Source of the DNA: Patescibacteria group bacterium
GTDB taxonomy: Bacteria; Patescibacteriota; CPR2; UBA1875
Assembly: GCA_041737595.1 (NCBI GenBank)
Contig: JBGSRK010000011.1
Location: 2,658-66,657, forward strand
DNA: 64,000 nucleotides
Direction: 5' to 3'
A model generated the notes under the pieces. The model was not told the DNA's origin. It searched no databases and saw only the letters and a list, made by a program, of their open reading frames with translations. Below are positions 2,951 to 56,878 of the stretch, one piece after another; the stretch's first letter is position 1; every line of letters begins with the position of its first letter. The position numbers and the translations under genes are program-made.

Positions 2951-2954
2951 ATTG

Positions 2955-3373
2955 TCTAGTTAATCTGTAAGCCGGGTTCTGTTCGTTTCTTGCTTTAAAA
3001 CAAGAAATCTGTCGATCATCTATCTATGCGACAGGATCTTTCACATAAAGCCAAGATTAAAGCCTTTTCAAACATTATAGAGCATTAAGAGACGTTTCCG
3101 TCCCATAAAACACATGTTTGATCATATGAACGACCCACCTGTCTTGCACCGAATAGGGTTTACCTCCCATTATTGTCACCAATAATGGCTGTGAGCTCTT
3201 ACCTCACTCTTTTCAACCTTACTGCATTGTCCAAAGACAATGTTTAGCGGTATAGTTTCTGTGGCACTTTCCCTACTCTTCCGAGCGGTTGCCGTTAGCA
3301 ACTATTCTAATCTTTTGGTGCCCGGACTTTCCTCTCTAAATAAAATTTAGGGCGATCGACCGATTAACTAGAC
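2955..3373 (-). ncRNA. rnpB: RNase P RNA (bacterial type)
   Basis: The minus strand reads GAGAGGAAAGUCCGGGCACC (P4 5' strand, reverse complement of 3318-3337) and ACAGAACCCGGCUUACAG (P4 3' strand, reverse complement of 2968-2985). A P1 helix forms from the 12-15 bp inverted termini gtctagttaatc/gattaactagac. The segment is ORF-free and more G+C-rich than its flanks. Confidence 0.85.
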
Positions 3374-8030: not shown

Positions 8031-8107
8031 GGGTGGTTAGCTCAGTTGGCTAGAGCGTCGCGTTGACATCGCGGAGGTCACAGGTTCGAGCCCTGTACCA
8101 CCCACCA
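8031..8107 (+). tRNA. tRNA-Val (anticodon GAC), CCA encoded
   Basis: Cloverleaf: acceptor GGGTGGT/ACCACCC, D-arm AGCTCAGTTGGCTAGAGC, anticodon stem TCGCG/CGCGG with loop TTGACAT, T-arm ACAGGTTCGAGCCCTGT, discriminator A plus CCA. Confidence 0.85.
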
Positions 8108-8228
8108 TAAATATCTGGGCGAGAAGTTTATCCGCCAACCGGCGGAAGCCCTGTACCACCCACCATAAATATCTGGGCGAGAAGTTTATCCGCCAACCGG
8201 CGGAAGCCCTGTACCACCCACCATAAAT
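8091..8228 (+). repeat. tandem direct repeat of a 58-bp unit (2 full copies plus a 22-bp partial)
   Basis: Unit ccctgtaccacccaccataaatatctgggcgagaagtttatccgccaaccggcggaag at 8091-8148 and 8149-8206, then a partial copy at 8207-8228. Unit 1 begins inside the tRNA-Val T-arm/acceptor. Each unit carries the hairpin ccgcc-aacc-ggcgg. Confidence 0.9.
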
Positions 8229-21676: not shown

Positions 21677-21876
21677 AGATATTCAAGAAAATATCTAGTT
21701 TTTTTGTATTATCATCTCGACTTTGTTTTGTCATTCTGAGCGTAGCGAAGAATCTAAATTTAGATCCTTCACATTTGTTCAGGATGACATATAGGGGAGG
21801 GGTTAATGTTTAAAAAGATATTCAAGAAAATATCTCGTACTTTAGTATTGTCATCCCGAGTGAAATCGAGGGATCT
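21677..21876. repeat. cluster of short palindromic repeat modules (family 1) plus a 20-bp direct repeat
   Basis: agatattcaagaaaatatct at 21677-21696 and 21816-21835. Module A tgtcattctgagcgtagcgaagaatct at 21729-21755. Module B gatccttcacatttgttcaggatgaca at 21763-21789. Variant ttgtcatcccgagtgaaatcgagggatct at 21848-21876. The same modules occur at 51731-51890 and 52225-52413. Confidence 0.85.
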
Positions 21877-21982
21877 AGGCTTTAAAGGGTTGCACCCTTT
21901 TAAAAAGGGACTGTCCCTTTTTAAGGGGTTCCATCAATTAAGGTTTAAAACAACTTTCCATCTTCACCTTAAAGCTTCAAGG

Positions 21983-32883: not shown

Positions 32884-33069
32884 ATAATAATTATAACATT
32901 TTAGTTAAATAATTAATGAGATAGTTTTAATAAATATCAGAATAGAGCGTAGTTAAAAAAGTGTAGAACCTTTACCATTTTGTTTTAGATACATATATGT
33001 TGAAGGCCGCCTCACAGCGGACGACCTTCAAGAAGGATCCGATATAGACGGCCTTTGTTTGTAGCGGAG

Positions 33070-33522
33070 CTACCCAAGCTCCAATGTGAATGTGAGGTTG
33101 GCGTCGACGTCGTAGCCTTCAGCAACCTTTTGCAGGATTGCAACTGCTTCAGTACAGTCGATGAACCCCTCAGAACCTACGTCCCACAGAGACTGATGAG
33201 GCCCATGCTTCTCTATCTCTTGTGGCGCGTAATAGTCCTCCAGGATGTTAACCACCTCATCCATGATGCTTGGAGGTATGTTCCAAATGCGTGGCGTGAT
33301 AGAGATTATGGCAGTGTTGTCACAGATATCCTTCCAAGCAGTCAGAACGCCTTGGGCCAAAATTACCGCGGTCTTGACCTCAATTGACCCCGACACTGTG
33401 AGTTCATAACACTCGGCGATGTCTTTGATATCAGACACTTCGTCAAGTTTGACCCCCAGTGAGTCGGCGACTCCCAACACTATCTCGCGCAACTGCCTTA
33501 GCCTCTTCGGAATAATCGGCAT
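33070..33522 (-). CDS. hypothetical protein encoded in the G+C-rich island
   Basis: 150 aa starting MPIIPKRLRQ. Strong GGGAGGAG Shine-Dalgarno 7 nt upstream. G+C is markedly higher than the flanks. The AT-rich 92-codon extension in the ORF track (to 33798) has no Shine-Dalgarno and a different composition. Confidence 0.5.
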   Translation of the reverse strand: MPIIPKRLRQLREIVLGVADSLGVKLDEVSDIKDIAECYELTVSGSIEVKTAVILAQGVLTAWKDICDNTAIISITPRIWNIPPSIMDEVVNILEDYYAPQEIEKHGPHQSLWDVGSEGFIDCTEAVAILQKVAEGYDVDANLTFTLELG

Positions 33523-33756
33523 CAAAATCTCCTCCCAGGTTCTAGATTTAGAGTGGCAACGATCTTTTATTGCTTTACTCTTATCTTCAATGGTAGCAGT
33601 ATACAAAAAATATTTTAGATTGTAAATAATAATATCCATATTGTGGCCCAATAAAGCCAAATTAGTTGATAATAGCAGACCTGTCTCGCAAAGATCAAAG
33701 AGTGAAATATGGAAGAAGTTTGGGAATTGTTTAATGTTTTTTGATATAATTATCTT

Positions 33757-33987
33757 ATGAAAAGAATTAAAATATTTTGCTCTAATTGTAATATTCAACT
33801 CTATTCATATAATAAAGATATTCGAGGCCATCTAATTAAATGCTATAAAGATATGATTATTAAGGATTTTACTAACCAGGGTTTAAAATGTCCCAATTGT
33901 GATCAAAAATTTGCAAGAGAGGCCTTATATCATAACCGGCCAGCAAATAAGATTATTCAAGGTAAGGTATTTACAAAAGGGGCTTAA
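33757..33987 (+). CDS. small CxxC...CxxC zinc-finger protein (tentative)
   Basis: 76 aa with CSNC...CPNC. Confidence 0.3.
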   Translation: MKRIKIFCSNCNIQLYSYNKDIRGHLIKCYKDMIIKDFTNQGLKCPNCDQKFAREALYHNRPANKIIQGKVFTKGA

Positions 33988-34069
33988 GAACTTCTATAAA
34001 AGCTATAAAGTAATTATTGTCGATATAATTGTTTTTATATAGCAGAAAGCCCCGTAGAGGCGGCTTTCG

Positions 34070-35023
34070 CTAGTTCTCTTGCGGGGCTTGTGGGATGACA
34101 CGAGGTGATTCGACTGTACGATTCTCTAGCCAGTTGGCGGCCGAGTCGAAATCAGAGAAGTCGCAGACGGCTGTGTGTTTGTATGCTTCTTCCTGACTTT
34201 GAACATCTGGTGGAACGTTGTTGTAGTCAACTACGATGAAGCGGTCTCCGACGACATTGACGTGTCCGTAGGTCCAGTATCTTCCTCCAGCTACAAAGTA
34301 GACAGCATGTCTATACTCACTAATGTGCCAGTAACCAATTTCAGTACAGTCTCTTTCTAAAACCGAGACTTTCGGGACTGTAGCTGCCTGAATTTCTTCC
34401 TCAGTAACCTCGTACATTCGTCGTTGTTTAGTCCACGGGAACTCTTTCCAATGAGCTAACAGCGTCTCTCGTTCTTCAGCCCTAATTTCCTCCCGAGCCA
34501 CATATTGATCTACCCCAAAGTGCTTGCGGTGAATTGGGATCGGAAAGCCATCGGCGATGCGATTGAGACCAAGGTTCGTTAGGTCGGTGTCCACCATAAC
34601 ATCGAGTCCTTGATGGTGGAAGTGTGCAGCGAATTTGTCGACACAGTCAGCTTCATGGAACCCAGCGATCACCACCTTACCCAACTCTCCTTGTATTTGA
34701 TTCTGCACGAAGGCTGGGTCGGCGTAGATCTCCTGATCCAGTTGGTCTCGCGTGATGCCTGAAGCCAGGAACCCATCAGTTGGATATATATTCACGTGAG
34801 TTGTAATCCAGCGAAGATCTGGTTCTAGTGTGTTGTCTGGTTCTGAAAACAGCAACCAGAGTACTTTGAATCCTCTTTGTCTATAACGAACATCGATAAG
34901 CGAGTCGAAGTAGGGGAATACGTATTTGCAGCATTCAGGAGAGCCAAGAGAGAAGCCAAGGTCTTTCTGTTCATGTTCGAAGTACCTCATGTCTGGGTAC
35001 ACGAACAAAAGGATGTCTTGCAT
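34070..35023 (-). CDS. G+C-rich island protein: isochorismatase-like (cysteine-hydrolase fold) N-domain fused to an unknown C-domain
   Basis: 317 aa. VVIAGFHEADCVDKFAAHFHHQGLDVMVDTDL resembles the catalytic-Cys strand of isochorismatase-family hydrolases. AAGGAGGT Shine-Dalgarno. G+C is about half, against about one-third in surrounding genes. Confidence 0.45.
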   Translation of the reverse strand: MQDILLFVYPDMRYFEHEQKDLGFSLGSPECCKYVFPYFDSLIDVRYRQRGFKVLWLLFSEPDNTLEPDLRWITTHVNIYPTDGFLASGITRDQLDQEIYADPAFVQNQIQGELGKVVIAGFHEADCVDKFAAHFHHQGLDVMVDTDLTNLGLNRIADGFPIPIHRKHFGVDQYVAREEIRAEERETLLAHWKEFPWTKQRRMYEVTEEEIQAATVPKVSVLERDCTEIGYWHISEYRHAVYFVAGGRYWTYGHVNVVGDRFIVVDYNNVPPDVQSQEEAYKHTAVCDFSDFDSAANWLENRTVESPRVIPQAPQEN

Positions 35024-35475: not shown

Positions 35476-35862
35476 TGGTGGAGCTGGCGGGAATTGAACC
35501 CGCGTCCGAAAGCAAAAACAAAATAAATTTAGCAACCATACTTAGCTCTGTTGTTTTAGATACAGACTAAAGAACCAAGAAAAAATCTATATCCTATTTC
35601 TTATGTCTTAGACGTGATTAAGAAAATCACACGTAGCAGTCCGAAAATATAACACCTCGAACTCCCTATCGGACGTCAGGGGCGAGATGGTTGTATGCGA
35701 TTAGGCTACAACTGGTGCAAAAGTAGGCATGCTGAAAGCAGCTTTTACTTTTGCGGCAAGTGAGTTTACACTTGTTGTTTAACGCATTGAATAACGCGGA
35801 TACGTTACCGCGGATTGCATTATTTTGTTTTTAATGTACCTTCGTCGAAGCCTGGCAGCCCC
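35476..35862 (-). ncRNA. ssrA: transfer-messenger RNA (tmRNA)
   Basis: 5' end GGGGCUGCCAGGCUUCGACG and 3' end GGACGCGGGUUCAAUUCCCGCCAGCUCCACCA form the tRNA-Ala-like acceptor/T-arm with the G3·U pair. The internal tag ORF GCC GCA AAA GUA AAA GCU GCU UUC AGC AUG CCU ACU UUU GCA CCA GUU GUA GCC UAA encodes (A)AKVKAAFSMPTFAPVVA. smpB lies 1.5 kb away. Confidence 0.85.
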
Positions 35863-37360: not shown

Positions 37361-37801
37361 CTATTTTTTTAAAGCTCTTTTGATATCTCGTTCTTGTTCT
37401 CTTTTCTTAATCGTTTCACGTTTATCATATCTTTTTTTACCTTTACCGAGACCTATTTCAACTTTTATCAAGTTATTCTTTGAATAAATTTTAAGAGGGA
37501 TTAGGGTATTGCCTTCAGCTTGGGCCTTTCCAATTAATTTTATTATCTCAGATTTTTTTAAGAGAAGTTTTCTTGATCTTGTTGGATTATAATCTGTGTT
37601 TAGAGCTGGTTTATATGGAGAAATATGAGCATTAGTTAAATATAATTCGCCCTGTTTTGTTGTTGCGAATGATTCTTTTATACTAATCTGACCAGCACGG
37701 ACAGATTTAACTTCTGGCCCAGTAAGCATAATACCAGCCTCATATTCTTCTAAAATTTCATAATTGAATCTAGCTTTTTTATTCTCTGCAAATATTTTCA
37801 T
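37361..37801 (-). CDS. smpB: SsrA-binding protein
   Basis: 146 aa: KKARFNYEILEEYEAGIMLTGPEVKS...GKGKKRYDKRE. Confidence 0.9.
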   Translation of the reverse strand: MKIFAENKKARFNYEILEEYEAGIMLTGPEVKSVRAGQISIKESFATTKQGELYLTNAHISPYKPALNTDYNPTRSRKLLLKKSEIIKLIGKAQAEGNTLIPLKIYSKNNLIKVEIGLGKGKKRYDKRETIKKREQERDIKRALKK

Positions 37802-37854
37802 ATATTTATTATACTTTACCTTATGCCTATTAGTATAATTATATCTTTCAATTT

Positions 37855-38003
37855 GAGACAGTTGAAAAACGTTTTTCTAATGTCATTGCGAGCCTGCGAA
37901 GCAATCTTTTTCGTACTTAGGGGTTAGATTGCCACGTCGTGAACTCCCTGCCTGCCGGCAGGCAGGCTCGCAATGACGTTTCGGGGAGTTTTTCAACAGT
38001 CTC
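37855..38003. mobile_element. MITE-like non-autonomous element (repeat family 2) with terminal inverted repeats and a target-site duplication
   Basis: Terminal inverted repeats gagacagttgaaaaac / gtttttcaacagtctc (15 of 16 matched). 10-bp direct repeat ctttcaattt immediately outside both ends (37845-37854 and 38004-38013). Internal 20-bp perfect palindrome cctgcctgccggcaggcagg and core tgtcattgcgagcctgcgaagcaatct. Confidence 0.75.
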
Positions 38004-38104
38004 CTTTCAATTTATGTACTTCACATTAGCGAAGCATAAGCTTTATTATGTTATTTTGGAGATATTTAAATGACAATAAAGTTAAAATCAAGTATAATAT
38101 CGTT

Positions 38105-39736
38105 ATGTTTGAAGATAAAATTAAAGACGAAATTCAATCTTCTGTGAGTATTTGTTTCGGGGAACATATAAAAACAGCAGATATTATTATAGAAAAACCT
38201 TCAGATAAAAAGTTTGGTGATTTTTCCTCGAATATTTCTTTCCAACTTGCAGGGAAACTTAAAAAATCTCCAAATGATATAGCTGAAAAGTTAGTAATTG
38301 ATTTAATAAAAACAAATAACTTTGAAAAAGTTGAAGCTGTTTCTGGTTTTATAAATTTTAAATTAAAAAAAGAAAAATATTTCAAAGTCTTAGAAGATAT
38401 TCTAAAAAATAAAGAATCTTTTGCTAAAAATAATGTCCTTAAGAATAAAAAAATCCAAGTAGAGTTTATTTCAGCAAATCCAACTGGTCCACTTACTCTC
38501 GCAAATGGGAGAGGGGGATATTCTGGTGATACTCTTTCTAATGTTTTGGCATTTTGTGGGGCAAACGTTGAAAGAGAATATTATGTTAATGATGGCGGGA
38601 ATCAGGTAAAAATACTTGGAGAATCTGTTCTTGTATCTGCTGGCTTATTAAAAAAAGAGGATGATATTTATCGGGGCGAATACATCGATAAGTGGGTTAA
38701 AGATAACAAAAAAGAAATAGAAAAATTAAAAGAAAAACCTTTTGAAATTGGTTACCTCTGTGCTAAATATGTGATGGAAAATTATATCAAAGCAGAAGTA
38801 AAAAGCATGAAGATTGGTTTTGATAATTGGTACAGCGAAAAATCTCTTTATGACAGAGGGTTAGTTGAAAAAGCTTTATCTTTTCTTGATAATAAAAAAT
38901 TAACTTACGAAAAAGATGATGCAAAATGGTTAAAAACATCAGAGTTTGGAGATGACAAAGATAGAGTAATTGTAAAAACCAACGGCGAATACACATATGT
39001 AATGCCTGATATCGCATATCATTGGGAAAAATTTACAGATAGAAAATATAATCAAGTCATTGATATTTTAGGGGCGGATCATCATGGTTATACCGAAAGA
39101 ATGCTTGCAGGCGTTGCTACACTTGGTTATCGTGATAATCTAACCTATATTTTAACTCAGATGGTCCGTTTGGTTAAAAACGGTAAAGAATTCAGAATGT
39201 CTAAAAGAAAAGGTGTAGTTGTAACTATTGAAGATCTTTTTGAGCTTATCGGAGGGGAAACAAGTGAAGCATCTGATGTTGCAAGATTTTTCTTTCTTTC
39301 ACGTTCTTTTAATACACATATGGATTTTGATTTAGATCTAGCAAAAGAACGTTCAGAAAAAAATCCAGTTTTTTATGTTAAATATGCCTACGCTCGAACA
39401 TATGGGATATTGTCAAAATCAAATAAAAATAACTCAAAACCAAATTTAAAATTATTAACAGAAGATGCGGAGATAGAGCTTATTGATAAATTATCAGAAC
39501 TTCCTGCACTTGTGCAGATGATAGCAACTACAGGTGATTACCCTGTTCATCTACTAACTTCCTATGCTATTGAAGTAGCAAAAAAATTCCATCACTTTTA
39601 TGATAAATGTCGAGTGATTGATGAAGAAAACCCTGAACTTACTAATGCTCGTCTTTCTTTGGTTTCCGGTACTAAAATTATTCTTGGTATAGTTGGTAAA
39701 GATCTTATTGGTATTGATATGCCAGATAAAATGTAA
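38105..39736 (+). CDS. argS: arginyl-tRNA synthetase
   Basis: Class I HIGH-like SANPTGPLTLANGRG, a DALR anticodon-binding C-terminus and the MSKRKG (KMSKS) motif. Start taken at ATG 38105 (MFEDKIK). Confidence 0.9.
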   Translation: MFEDKIKDEIQSSVSICFGEHIKTADIIIEKPSDKKFGDFSSNISFQLAGKLKKSPNDIAEKLVIDLIKTNNFEKVEAVSGFINFKLKKEKYFKVLEDILKNKESFAKNNVLKNKKIQVEFISANPTGPLTLANGRGGYSGDTLSNVLAFCGANVEREYYVNDGGNQVKILGESVLVSAGLLKKEDDIYRGEYIDKWVKDNKKEIEKLKEKPFEIGYLCAKYVMENYIKAEVKSMKIGFDNWYSEKSLYDRGLVEKALSFLDNKKLTYEKDDAKWLKTSEFGDDKDRVIVKTNGEYTYVMPDIAYHWEKFTDRKYNQVIDILGADHHGYTERMLAGVATLGYRDNLTYILTQMVRLVKNGKEFRMSKRKGVVVTIEDLFELIGGETSEASDVARFFFLSRSFNTHMDFDLDLAKERSEKNPVFYVKYAYARTYGILSKSNKNNSKPNLKLLTEDAEIELIDKLSELPALVQMIATTGDYPVHLLTSYAIEVAKKFHHFYDKCRVIDEENPELTNARLSLVSGTKIILGIVGKDLIGIDMPDKM

Positions 39737-51706: not shown

Positions 51707-51730
51707 TTTTTTCTAGAGTTTAGTTTTTTA

Positions 51731-51890
51731 GATCCTTCACATTCGTTCAGGATGACAGCCATTTCTACAAAGGATGACAGCCACCTTGTCATTCTGAGTG
51801 GAACGAAGAATCTGGATGATAGATCCTTCACATTCGTTCAGGACGACAACTACCTTGTTTAGAATGACAATTACTTCTGCTAGAAATACC
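51731..51890. repeat. palindromic repeat modules (family 1) upstream of the GIY-YIG gene
   Basis: B gatccttcacattcgttcaggatgaca at 51731-51757, A ttgtcattctgagtggaacgaagaatct at 51786-51813, B at 51823-51848, plus ttgtttagaatgacaa. About 118 bp is near-identical to 52261-52378. Confidence 0.85.
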
Positions 51891-51951
51891 AACTTTTATT
51901 GTCATTTTTAGCACGGTCGAATAATCTAAAAGCTTATGTTAAAATATAATT

Positions 51952-52236
51952 GTGAAAACATATTATGTATATATTTTAACGAACTACACAAATAAGGTTT
52001 TATATATTGGTGTAACAAATAATTTAATAAGACGAATATATGAACATAAAAATAAGATAATTGACGGTTTTACAAAAAAATATAACATCAATAAATTGGT
52101 TTATTATGAGGTATTCAATAGAGCTAATGACGCAATAGTAGCTGAAAAGAAGCTTAAAGGATGGCTACGGGAAAAGAAAATAGAGTTAATAGTTTCAATG
52201 AACCCAGAATGGGAGGACCTTTCCTTGTCATTCTGA
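51952..52236 (+). CDS. stand-alone GIY-YIG nuclease-family protein (about 94 aa)
   Basis: YVYILTN...KVLYIGVTNNLIRRIYEHKN matches GIY...YIG with the conserved Arg/Glu/Asn. GTG start. The last five codons and the TGA stop lie inside repeat module A. Confidence 0.75.
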   Translation: MKTYYVYILTNYTNKVLYIGVTNNLIRRIYEHKNKIIDGFTKKYNINKLVYYEVFNRANDAIVAEKKLKGWLREKKIELIVSMNPEWEDLSLSF

Positions 52237-52413
52237 GTGGAACGAAGAATCTGGATGATAGATCCTTCACATTCGTTCAGGACGACAGCCATTTCTGCAA
52301 AGGATGACAGCCACCTTGTCATTCTGAGTGGAACAAAGAATCTGGATGATAGATCCTTCACATTCGTTCAGGATGACAACTACTTCTGTCATTCTGAGCA
52401 AAACGAAGAATCT
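52225..52413. repeat. palindromic repeat modules (family 1) downstream of the GIY-YIG gene
   Basis: A at 52225-52251, B at 52261-52287, A at 52316-52343, B at 52352-52378 and A-variant tgtcattctgagcaaaacgaagaatct at 52387-52413. Confidence 0.85.
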
Positions 52414-56737: not shown

Positions 56738-56878
56738 GAGACCGTTAAAAAAATCTCCGAAAAGTCATTGCGAGGAGTATTTTTAGTAAAATACGACGTG
56801 GCAATCTAACCCTTAAGCATGAAAGAGATTGCTTCGCAGGCTCGCAATGACGTTAGAAAAACTTTTTTCAATAGTCTT
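56738..56878. mobile_element. second, degenerate copy of the MITE-like element (family 2), inverted relative to 37855-38003
   Basis: gagaccgttaaaaaaatctccgaaaagtcattgcgagg ... cgacgtggcaatctaaccc ... gcaggctcgcaatgacgttagaaaaacttttttcaatagtctt. Its arms align to the reverse complement of the 37855-38003 arms, and cacgacgtggcaatctaacccc is shared. Confidence 0.65.

What the first reader, a model, noticed from the sequence alone, without database searches (positions are those of the whole stretch)
37855..38003. MITE-like element with 16-bp terminal inverted repeats, 10-bp target-site duplication and an internal 20-bp perfect palindrome
A 149-bp unit is bounded by gagacagttgaaaaac and gtttttcaacagtctc (15 of 16 matched as inverted repeats). 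It is flanked on both sides by the direct repeat ctttcaattt, the signature of transposase-mediated insertion. It sits in the smpB/argS divergent intergenic region. Inside is the perfect palindrome cctgcctgccggcaggcagg and the core tgtcattgcgagcctgcgaagcaatct. That core has the same architecture (tgtcattNNgag N4-5 cgaagNNatct) as module A of the repeat family around the GIY-YIG gene, which suggests the families are related. No transposase is present in the window, so the element is non-autonomous here.
Basis: seen in the sequence. Interest (0 to 1): 0.6.

Follow-up and report, generated by a model that had tools for sequence, protein, structure and literature searches.

The report
Miniature transposon carrying two hairpin repeats
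This 149-base non-coding stretch is a miniature transposon: its ends match those of IS1182-family insertion sequences, and inside are two hairpin repeats resembling those cut by small GIY-YIG (Ssn) nucleases, so it is an ordinary kind of mobile DNA from a family I found no description of.

Summary
Window 37855-38003 is a 149-bp unit with 16-bp terminal inverted repeats (15/16), an exact 10-bp flanking direct repeat, and a 20-bp perfect internal palindrome.

The MITE reading is supported and can be made sharper:
- The terminal 16-mer GAGACTGTTGAAAAAC is also the terminus of several full-length IS1182-family insertion sequences.
- One metagenome contig (L318) carries such an IS next to two 141-bp elements built like this one.
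- More than 120 metagenome loci hold the same architecture: TIR, hairpin unit, AT-rich spacer, inverted hairpin unit, TIR.

The inner units, (C/T)GTCAT-stem-GA…GA-stem-ATCT, share their layout with the repeats flanking the window's GIY-YIG gene. That layout resembles published Ssn-related motifs (Chenal 2025) and CGTC-tagged REPs.

One feature is odd. Relatives have 4-5-bp target duplications, while this copy has 10 bp.

No transposase lies in the window. Orthologous smpB-argS spacers in relatives are 58-125 nt and lack the element.

Verdict: a new member of a known kind, of modest interest.

The parts
37845..37854 (.). Left copy of the 10-bp direct repeat CTTTCAATTT, the putative target-site duplication
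   Evidence: D1. It is the only 10-bp case among 69 non-redundant family insertions.
37855..37870 (+). Left terminal inverted repeat GAGACAGTTGAAAAAC, of IS1182-family type; one substitution from the family form GAGACTGTTGAAAAAC
   Evidence: I2. The same 16-mer ends full-length IS1182-family ISs.
37881..37907 (+). Hairpin unit 1, minimal form: TGTCATTGCGAGCCTGCGAAGCAATCT. It has a (C/T)GTC tag, a 5-bp stem ATTGC/GCAAT and a GA-rich loop
   Evidence: CM R1 hit at 37879-37909, 36.5 bits, E 2e-6.
37908..37923 (.). Central spacer between the two inverted hairpin units
   Evidence: Family architecture seen in 76 distinct elements.
37924..37980 (-). Hairpin unit 2, long form, read on the minus strand: CGTCATTGCGAG - distal hairpin - GACGTGGCAATCT
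   Evidence: CM R1 hit at 37924-37980, 29.1 bits, E 1e-4.
37947..37966 (.). 20-bp perfect palindrome, which is the variable distal stem of unit 2. The second window copy has an AT hairpin (GTATTTTTAGTAAAATAC) at the same position
   Evidence: I6. Distal stems covary across the family.
37988..38003 (-). Right terminal inverted repeat. Its reverse complement is GAGACTGTTGAAAAAC, identical to the family and IS terminus
38004..38013 (.). Right copy of the 10-bp direct repeat CTTTCAATTT
   Evidence: D1.
56738..56878 (-). Second, decayed copy of the same MITE: 141 bp, opposite orientation, 78% identical. Its TIRs are degraded to GAGACCGTTAAAAAAA and AAGACTATTGAAAAAA. Flanks are aacc|..|aaac. It lies upstream of an RmuC-family gene
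   Evidence: nhmmer gives a full-length hit, E 3e-19. CM units at 56761-56809 (+) and 56824-56854 (-). Pfam result.

Best explanation

Its 16-bp termini are the recognition and cleavage sites of an IS1182-family DDE transposase supplied in trans. That transposase is not in this window and may no longer be in this genome. A transposase-mediated insertion into the short divergent smpB/argS promoter spacer produced the flanking 10-bp duplication.

Between the termini lie two inverted copies of a short hairpin module: (C/T)GTCAT, a 5-bp AT-started stem, GA-rich internal loops, a freely variable distal stem, then ATCT. This layout is shared with the repeats that flank the small GIY-YIG nuclease gene at 51952-52236, and it resembles the published Ssn-related motifs.

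What is shown:
- the anatomy of the element;
- profile-level membership in a large family;
- identity of its termini with IS1182-family ISs;
- an autonomous IS and MITEs on one contig;
- target duplications in the family;
- absence of the element from syntenic sites in relatives.

What is inferred:
- that an IS1182 transposase actually moved it;
- that the hairpins act as single-stranded DNA (or RNA) structures;
- that the focal copy is younger than the decayed copy at 56738-56878.
For: 1. **Shared termini with full-length ISs.** GAGACTGTTGAAAAAC ends these full-length ISs:
   - L083, 1502 bp. Its transposase scores 393.9 bits on NF033551 against a cutoff of 270, and Pfam gives DUF772 + DDE_Tnp_1_6 + DDE_Tnp_1.
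   - L119, 1511 bp, 374.7 bits.
   - L318 5910-7513, 363.7 bits.
   - L331-L334, 1593 bp, and L335-L337, 1582 bp.
2. **Autonomous and non-autonomous partners together.** L318 carries that IS plus two 141-bp elements with the same TIRs and the same hairpin modules. Each has a 5-bp direct repeat.
3. **Abundance and shared design.** Seventy-six distinct elements of 81-284 bp (most 131-170 bp) share the design TIR, unit, spacer, inverted unit, TIR.
4. **Independent profile.** An nhmmer profile made from 74 of those elements, with no window sequence, hits only 37855-38003 (E 1e-22) and 56738-56878 (E 3e-19).
5. **Target duplications in relatives.** Among 69 non-redundant insertions the abutting exact direct repeat is 4 bp in 31, 5 bp in 9, and 0-1 bp in 25.
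6. **Hairpin-loop targeting.** Flanks outside the duplication are inverted-complementary more often than controls: at least 4 of 6 positions in 12 of 41 cases, against 5.7% in controls. This fits the published palindrome targeting of IS1182-family members (PMC5678879).
7. **Insertion, not ancestral sequence.** Syntenic spacers in three relatives are 58-125 nt, against 303 nt here.
8. **Other taxa.** Short TIR-bounded derivatives with the same 16-mer occur in Verrucomicrobiota, Sphingomonas, Rhodospirillales, a Deferribacteres-labelled MAG and CPR MAGs.
9. **Precedent.** IS1182-derived MITEs of 160 bp with a 4-bp direct repeat are published for Methanosarcina acetivorans (PMC3852290, Table 4).
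Against: - **Atypical duplication length.** The 10-bp duplication is unique among the 69 family insertions examined, where 4-5 bp is typical. The second window copy shows at best a 3-of-4 match for a 4-bp repeat.
- **No transposase seen.** No IS1182 transposase lies in the 64-kb window. The rest of the genome could not be searched.
- **Limited similarity to the ISs.** Similarity between MITEs and full-length ISs is confined to about 17 terminal bases. The MITE is therefore not a simple deletion derivative.
- **No true empty site.** The nearest relatives are too divergent for alignment (ArgS 63-64% identical).
- **No experimental evidence.** No transposition has been shown.
- **Search bias.** The exact-match searches could only return elements that keep the queried bases. 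The apparent invariance of the TIR core and of ATTGC/GCAAT is partly a consequence of the search design.
Confidence: 0.85

Rival explanations
1. The mobile or functional unit is the inverted pair of hairpins, a REPIN-like doublet. It would be propagated or processed as single-stranded DNA by the Ssn-type GIY-YIG nuclease encoded at 51952-52236. The outer 'TIRs' would be incidental or secondary.
For: - The units share their layout with those flanking the GIY-YIG gene.
- In the three other GIY-YIG gene contexts examined, from different MAGs, the gene is flanked on both sides by such hairpins.
- Ssn proteins bind and cut such hairpins as ssDNA, and the repeat-gene-repeat layout resembles an IS (PMC11893778).
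- No DDE transposase lies in the window.
- The 10-bp direct repeat is atypical for the IS1182-type relatives.
Against: - The boundaries of homology across more than 70 elements fall exactly at the 16-bp termini shared with IS1182 ISs, not at the hairpins.
- Relatives carry the 4-5-bp target duplications typical of DDE insertion.
- No strand-transfer or transposase activity has been reported for Ssn (PMC11893778).
- The MITE stems (ATTGC/GCAAT) differ from those around the window's GIY-YIG gene (ATTCT/AGAAT, ATCCT/AGGAT), so cognate recognition is unproven.
Confidence: 0.07
2. It is, or has become, a host regulatory or structural element rather than selfish DNA. One possibility is a cruciform or insulator between the divergent smpB and argS promoters. 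Another is a structured RNA, if it is transcribed.
For: - The predicted hairpin is very stable on both strands, z about -8 to -9.
- It sits between two promoters without disrupting them. The argS promoter-like site ATGACA-17-TATAAT at 38070-38098 lies downstream of the element.
- Distal stems in the family keep pairing despite sequence turnover.
Against: - No Rfam family matches, even at E up to 10.
- No terminator-like site is found.
- Three syntenic relatives lack it.
- Family members sit in unrelated contexts, often inside other palindromic repeats.
- The second window copy is decaying.
- Any inverted-repeat transposon gives such fold scores.
Confidence: 0.05
3. It is a chance low-complexity palindrome with a fortuitous flanking repeat.
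For: - The genome is AT-rich, 32% GC.
- Matches to the TIR 16-mer with up to 3 mismatches occur at about 1 per window in shuffles.
Against: - An independent family profile hits it full length at E 1e-22.
- The 10/10 abutting repeat has a chance probability of about 3e-6 (my calculation from the composition).
- Zero of 200 shuffles fold as well.
Confidence: 0.01

Closest known systems
MITEs derived from IS1182-family insertion sequences, such as the ISMac2-related MITEs of Methanosarcina acetivorans (PMC3852290, Table 4)
   Same: - Small size: about 160 bp there, 149 bp here.
- Terminal inverted repeats matching an IS1182-family IS.
- No coding capacity, and multi-copy.
- A 4-bp direct repeat in most relatives found here.
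   Different: - The host here is a Patescibacteria (CPR) bacterium.
- This copy has a 10-bp direct repeat.
- The interior is not IS-derived. It consists of two inverted hairpin modules that resemble Ssn-related motifs.
- No sequence comparison with the ISMac2 MITEs was possible.
IS1272 and the IS1182 family (PMC5678879; ISfinder family description, recalled from memory as giving direct repeats of 0-60 bp)
   Same: - A DDE transposase with DUF772 + DDE_Tnp_1 domains in the cognate ISs.
- 16-bp terminal IRs.
- A preference for palindromic or stem-loop targets, also seen in the flanks of relatives here.
- Variable or absent target duplication.
   Different: - IS1272 replaces the target stem-loop and leaves no duplication. 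Relatives here mostly duplicate 4-5 bases at the centre of the palindrome.
- The focal element encodes nothing.
Ssn-related motifs (SRM; NTS/dRS3 of Neisseria) and their GIY-YIG ssDNA nucleases, Ssn (Chenal et al. 2025, PMC11893778)
   Same: - The units begin (C/T)GTCAT, continue with an AT-started stem and a loop of free sequence, and end ATC. Compare the published NTS, CGTCATTCCCGCGMAVGCGGGAATCYRG.
- The same kind of unit flanks a small single-domain GIY-YIG gene on both sides in this window and in three other loci.
   Different: - The published degenerate SRM pattern matches none of the units in the window or in L327-L329.
- Stems here are only 5 bp, followed by GA/GA internal loops.
- In the MITE the units are enclosed by DDE-type TIRs. 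The word MITE does not occur in that paper.
- Binding or cleavage by an Ssn was not tested.
CGTC-tagged REPs (Di Nocera et al. 2013, PMC3733652)
   Same: - A terminal CGTC/TGTC tag.
- Stems starting with complementary A-T residues.
- Units mostly arranged as inverted dimers.
- Wide phylogenetic spread.
- Reported to lack a dedicated transposase.
   Different: - Those REPs have 8-9-bp stems, 4-5-nt loops and a CCA tail.
- Here the stem is 5 bp, with GA-rich loops, an optional long distal stem and a CT tail.
- Those REPs are not bounded by TIRs.
REPINs and RAYT transposases (PMC3116915, PMC2817692)
   Same: Two inverted hairpin repeats separated by a spacer form the repeated unit, and a nuclease gene is flanked by its own repeats elsewhere in the genome.
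   Different: - There is no GTAG tag.
- No Y1/RAYT gene was seen in the window.
- The termini match a DDE insertion sequence, and target duplications are present. REPINs make none.

Membership tests
MITE (miniature inverted-repeat transposable element) | Short length (about 50-500 bp) with no coding capacity | tested here: met
   The element is 149 bp. No frame holds an ATG/GTG/TTG-initiated ORF of 50 aa or more. One frame on each strand is stop-free across the 147 translated bases, 49 codons.
MITE (miniature inverted-repeat transposable element) | Terminal inverted repeats | tested here: met
   16 bp, 15 of 16 complementary (I2).
MITE (miniature inverted-repeat transposable element) | Flanking target-site duplication | tested here: met
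   An exact 10-bp direct repeat abuts both ends (D1). Relatives have 4-5 bp.
MITE (miniature inverted-repeat transposable element) | Multiple copies, within the genome or across a family | tested here: met
   A second copy lies at 56738-56878. More than 120 related metagenome loci were found. The genome-wide copy number is not testable from 64 kb.
MITE (miniature inverted-repeat transposable element) | Termini shared with an autonomous IS that encodes the transposase | tested here: met
   The same 16-mer ends ISs in L083, L119, L318, L331-L334 and L335-L337. L318 holds both an IS and MITEs.
IS1182-family derivative | The cognate transposase is an IS1182-family DDE enzyme | tested here: met
   NF033551 scores 393.9, 374.7 and 363.7 bits against a cutoff of 270. 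Pfam gives DUF772 + DDE_Tnp_1 + DDE_Tnp_1_6.
IS1182-family derivative | The cognate transposase is present in the same genome | not testable with these tools
   None lies in the window.
IS1182-family derivative | Target duplication length and target type typical of the cognate ISs: 4-5 bp at the centre of a palindrome | tested here: not met
   The repeat here is 10 bp, the only such case among 69 insertions. The flanks TATAT/ATGTA give only 4 of 6 complementary positions, which 5.7% of controls reach.
Ssn-related motif (SRM/NTS) hairpin | Match to the published degenerate SRM search pattern | tested here: not met
   There are 0 matches in the window and in L327-L329, while the NTS control matches.
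Ssn-related motif (SRM/NTS) hairpin | An oriented hairpin with a 5' (C/T)GTC tag, an AT-started stem and a C after the palindrome, found on both sides of a small single-domain GIY-YIG gene | tested here: met
   This holds for the units around 51952-52236 and around homologues in L327, L328 and L329. The MITE units share the architecture and are the top CM hits, with the gene-flanking units next. The MITE itself is not adjacent to a GIY-YIG gene.
Ssn-related motif (SRM/NTS) hairpin | Bound and cleaved as ssDNA by the cognate Ssn nuclease | not testable with these tools
   This needs an in vitro nuclease assay. Assignment of the window protein to cd10448 was also not tested; only Pfam PF01541 is on record.
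CGTC-tagged REP | A CGTC/TGTC tag, a stem of 8-9 bp starting with A-T pairs, a 4-5-nt loop and a CCA-like tail | tested here: inconclusive
   The tag and the AT start are met. Stem length, loop and tail differ: a 5-bp stem, GA-rich loops and a CT tail.
REPIN/RAYT system | GTAG-tagged REP doublets with a flanked Y1 (RAYT) transposase and no target duplication | tested here: not met
   The tag is (C/T)GTC, not GTAG, and a target duplication is present. No systematic search for a Y1/RAYT gene was run on the window.
Known structured RNA family (Rfam) | A covariance-model match at or near the gathering score | tested here: not met
   There is no hit in the region at gathering threshold. Only chance-level hits appear at E of 5 or more.

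The most novel reading that the evidence does not exclude
This MITE family is a vehicle by which Ssn-type or CGTC-type hairpin repeats are copied and spread between phyla by a DDE (IS1182-family) transposase. Those repeats have been reported to lack a dedicated transposase. The conserved hairpins are kept because they interact, as single-stranded DNA, with Ssn GIY-YIG nucleases or with the hairpin-seeking transposase itself. That would link two otherwise separate mobile-DNA systems.
Probability: 0.25. Interest if true: 0.6.

Novelty: new member of a known kind. Interest (0 to 1): 0.35.

Why it matters
For this genome it matters little. It is a small piece of selfish DNA parked between two promoters, with a second, decaying copy 19 kb away.

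More broadly, three points are of interest.
- It identifies a large MITE family in groundwater and sediment metagenomes for which I found no description. The termini tie it to IS1182-family transposases.
- Its cargo is a pair of hairpins of the class recently shown to be targets of Ssn single-strand nucleases. This offers a concrete, testable route by which such repeats could multiply and cross phyla.
- The published search pattern for those motifs misses the variants examined here: all units in this window and those around three other GIY-YIG genes.

Tried and rejected
- **Rfam.** Searches at gathering threshold and at E up to 10 found no RNA family for the element.
- **Phage databases.** The GenBank phage collection gave only two short, insignificant matches. 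The viral-contig scan with the TIR gave only single matches with no inverted partner. The viral-contig scan with the TIR-plus-unit pattern gave 0 hits.
- **rRNA promoter idea.** The conserved context of the 16-mer in Sphingomonas and Acetobacteraceae suggested an rRNA-operon promoter. Rfam found no rRNA there, and the loci proved to be ISs and MITEs.
- **True empty site.** The nearest relatives are only 63-64% identical in ArgS, so only spacer lengths could be compared.
- **Source contig.** A lookup by the exact GIY-YIG protein found nothing on record.
- **GIY-YIG genes next to ATTGC-type units.** tblastn over all held loci found none. The C-terminal tails of 120 homologues were uninformative.
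- **Novelty of the GIY-YIG link.** I first treated the association of the GIY-YIG gene with hairpin repeats as possibly new. This was rejected on finding Chenal et al. 2025.
- **K-turn reading.** A K-turn reading of the GA-rich loops does not fit the register (my inspection).
- **Stability of minimal units.** Thermodynamic support for the minimal units as ssDNA hairpins is absent, z about 0. The hairpin claim rests on stem covariation, not on energy.
- **Literature string searches.** Searches for the unit sequences found nothing relevant.

Full report
**Observation**

- Window 37855-38003 is bounded by GAGACAGTTGAAAAAC and GTTTTTCAACAGTCTC, complementary at 15 of 16 positions (I2).
- CTTTCAATTT abuts both ends, at 37845-37854 and 38004-38013 (D1). 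That 10-mer occurs only three times in the 64 kb.
- At 32% GC, two abutting 10-mers agree by chance with a probability of about 3e-6 (my calculation).
- Inside are the perfect palindrome at 37947-37966 (I6) and a further 19-nt inverted repeat, 37879-37897 with 37962-37980 (I1).
- Either strand folds into one long hairpin, -74 and -67 kcal/mol, z = -8.8 and -8.0.
- The element lies between smpB (37361-37801, minus strand) and argS (38105-39736, plus strand).
- An independent Logan assembly of the same organism carries the identical spacer, so it is not an assembly artefact.
- The organism is a Patescibacteria (CPR) bacterium. This rests on the ArgS homologues, of which the best non-self hits are 63-64% identical.

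**The termini belong to IS1182-family insertion sequences**

About 500 single chance matches are expected in 596 Gb (my estimate). However, many loci carried two matches in inverted orientation 200-330 bp apart, mostly in Verrucomicrobiota. With up to three mismatches allowed, further short pairs appeared in Sphingomonas, Rhodospirillales, a Deferribacteres-labelled MAG, Terriglobia and a CPR (Uhrbacteria) MAG.

Several loci are complete insertion sequences:
- L083 is a 1504-bp Sphingomonas contig holding a 1502-bp IS with these termini. It encodes a 447-aa protein that scores 393.9 bits on NCBIfam NF033551 (IS1182 family, cutoff 270). Pfam finds DUF772, DDE_Tnp_1_6 and DDE_Tnp_1.
- L119 (1511 bp) and L318 (1604 bp) score 374.7 and 363.7 bits.
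- The L318 transposase has about 57 close homologues, nearly all on contigs of 1.5-2 kb, as expected of a multi-copy IS.
- The longer contigs fetched (L331-L337) again show GAGACTGTTGAAAAAC...TTTTTCAACAGTCTC ends, with 5-bp direct repeats.

**A large family with the same internal design**

- Seventy-six distinct elements, mostly 131-170 bp, share one plan.
- The plan is a 16-bp TIR, then 9-12 nt, then a unit GTCATTGCGAG - variable distal hairpin - CG(A/T)(A/G)GCAATCT. An AT-rich spacer of 20-35 nt follows, then the same unit inverted, 10-20 nt, and the other TIR.
- Contig L318 holds the full IS and two such 141-bp elements with the same ends. This is an autonomous and non-autonomous pair.
- Similarity between IS and MITE is confined to about 17 terminal bases.
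- An nhmmer profile built from 74 of these elements, with none from the window, hits the window at exactly two places. These are 37855-38003 (E 1e-22) and 56738-56878 (E 3e-19), both full length.

- It is 141 bp, in the opposite orientation, and 78% identical.
- Both TIRs are degraded.
- An AT hairpin stands where the focal copy has its GC palindrome.
- It lies upstream of an RmuC-family gene.

**Target duplication**

I examined 69 non-redundant insertions with well-formed ends. The exact abutting direct repeat is 4 bp in 31, 5 bp in 9, and 0-1 bp in 25. It is 10 bp in one, the focal element.

The sequences just outside the duplication are inverted-complementary more often than in controls. 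The mean is 2.68 against 1.64 of 6 positions. At least 4 of 6 are complementary in 12 of 41 cases, against 5.7% of controls. Some targets are perfect palindromes with the duplicated bases at their centre, for example L262.

This matches the published behaviour of IS1182-family members, which seek stem-loops and give variable or no duplication (PMC5678879). From memory, ISfinder lists 0-60 bp for the family. MITEs of an IS1182-family IS with a 4-bp repeat are published (PMC3852290, Table 4).

The 10-bp repeat here is therefore real but atypical. Its flanks, TATAT and ATGTA, could form only a weak stem, so a 'loop duplication' reading is possible but unproven.

**Insertion rather than ancestral sequence**

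Three relatives keep the order glycosyltransferase, smpB, argS. Their smpB-argS spacers are 60, 125 and 58 nt, against 303 nt here. That 303 equals 144 + 149 + 10. The 125-nt spacer holds an unrelated palindrome. The sequences are too diverged to align, so this is not a true empty site.

A promoter-like site for argS, ATGACA-17-TATAAT at 38070-38098, lies downstream of the element, and no terminator-like site is present. The element therefore sits between the two promoters.

No IS1182 transposase is encoded in the window.

**The inner hairpin units**

I built a covariance model from 33 metagenomic MITE units. Its structure is a 5-bp stem, a GA/GAA loop, a G-C pair, a GA/GA loop and a distal stem. 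All four distal pairs show changes on both sides. Ninety-five per cent of cells are paired, against 17-60% when the partners are slid.

In the window the model finds the four MITE units first (E 2e-6 to 1e-4). Next come the units at 21727, 21847, 51785, 51898, 52224, 52315 and 52385 (E 0.003 to 2.3). A looser architectural pattern gives 17 hits in the window against 2.3 in shuffles.

Across units the stem changes with compensation. Observed forms are ATTGC/GCAAT, ATTCT/AGAAT, ATCCT/AGGAT, ATCCC/GGGAT, ATTCC/GGAAT, ATGCC/GGCAT and ATTTC/GAAAT.

The minimal units are weak hairpins by nearest-neighbour energies, z about 0. The structural claim therefore rests on covariation.

**What the units are**

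The 94-aa GIY-YIG protein has homologues about 70% identical in MAGs labelled Patescibacteria, Ignavibacteria, Gammaproteobacteria, Clostridia and Sulfurihydrogenibium. In the three other gene contexts examined, the gene is flanked on both sides by such hairpins.

This arrangement is already published. Chenal et al. 2025 (PMC11893778) showed the following.
- Small single-domain GIY-YIG proteins (Ssn) are site-specific single-stranded-DNA endonucleases.
- They bind hairpin repeats (NTS, CGTCATTCCCGCGMAVGCGGGAATCYRG; more generally 'SRM') and cut just upstream of them.
- Their genes are typically flanked by these repeats.

The units also fit the CGTC/TGTC tag and AT-started stems of the 'CGTC-tagged REPs', which were reported to lack a dedicated transposase (PMC3733652).

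Two caveats apply. The published degenerate SRM pattern matches none of the units in the window or in L327-L329. Cleavage by an Ssn was not tested. I therefore call the units SRM-like rather than SRM. The word MITE does not occur in the Ssn paper.

**Mechanism**

The best-supported account has three steps.
1. An IS1182-family DDE transposase, supplied in trans, recognised the 16-bp ends.
2. It inserted the element into the smpB-argS spacer.
3. Repair of staggered cuts gave the duplication.

The anatomy, family membership, shared termini, co-resident IS and MITEs, family duplications and absence from syntenic sites are shown. The act of mobilisation is inferred, as is any role for the hairpins. 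The focal copy, with near-perfect TIRs and a perfect duplication, looks younger than the decayed copy at 56738-56878.

**Rival readings**
- **REPIN-like doublet driven by the Ssn nuclease.** The homology boundaries fall at the TIRs, target duplications are present, and Ssn has no known transposase activity.
- **Host regulatory hairpin or RNA.** There is no Rfam match and no synteny, and one copy is decaying.
- **Chance.** The profile E-values exclude it.

**Comparison and novelty**

This is a MITE, and specifically a member of the IS1182-associated kind that is already known. I found no description of this particular family, in which IS1182-type ends enclose two SRM-like hairpins. The library searched is incomplete.

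I rate it a new member of a known kind, of modest interest. The most novel reading still open is that such MITEs are a route by which Ssn-type hairpin repeats are multiplied and moved between phyla by a DDE transposase.

Noticed in passing
window 51727-52413 (gene 51952-52236, +) and 21719-21878: A 94-aa GIY-YIG gene (PF01541) is flanked on both sides by arrays of TGTCAT-stem-GA..GA-stem-ATCT hairpin units in alternating orientation. A further small cluster of the same units lies at 21.7 kb without such a gene. This layout resembles the published SRM-ssn-SRM arrangement of Ssn single-strand nucleases (PMC11893778). Homologues about 70% identical occur in MAGs from several phyla, many on contigs under 1 kb.
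   Followed up: yes
window (all); L327, L328, L329: The published degenerate search pattern for Ssn-related motifs matches the Neisseria NTS. It matches none of the hairpin units around the GIY-YIG genes in this window or in the three other loci examined, so it misses these variants.
   Followed up: yes
window 8031-8228: tRNA-Val(GAC) is followed by two further direct copies of its last ~24 bases, within a 58-nt unit (AGCCCTGTACCACCCACCATAAAT...) repeated in tandem. This looks like repeated integration scars at the tRNA 3' end, or a slippage product.
   Followed up: no
window about 33000-35000, next to tmRNA at 35476-35862 (-): A block of much higher G+C than the 32% background lies immediately beside the tmRNA gene. 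Its two large ORFs (33070-33798 and 34070-35023, minus strand) have no Pfam match. It may be a foreign island integrated at ssrA.
   Followed up: partly
L324 2376-2500: The smpB-argS spacer of a relative carries a different, unrelated palindromic insert (agggtcggaccctagcag...ctgctagggtccgaccct). This short divergent spacer has been hit by small palindromic elements more than once.
   Followed up: no
L318, L331-L337 and many of L203-L322 (flanks of the ISs and MITEs): The sequences into which these ISs and MITEs inserted are themselves recurrent palindromic repeats, for example GGGTGTCCC..GGGACACCC and GGGTCA..TGACCC. The duplicated 4-5 bases sit at the centre, which indicates nested insertion into other hairpin repeats.
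   Followed up: partly
L003, L008, L021, L023, L030, L043, L064, L080, L089 and other Verrucomicrobiota loci: MITE families of 200-330 bp with the identical 16-bp termini but different interiors occur in Verrucomicrobiota MAGs, mostly flanked by CTAG, CTAA or TTAA. One MAG (LejiaC_63_26) has matches on at least nine contigs. Sphingomonas species carry 168-170-bp derivatives.
   Followed up: partly
window 2952-3371 (-): A bacterial class A RNase P RNA gene, 219.7 bits. This is routine and is recorded only for orientation.
   Followed up: no
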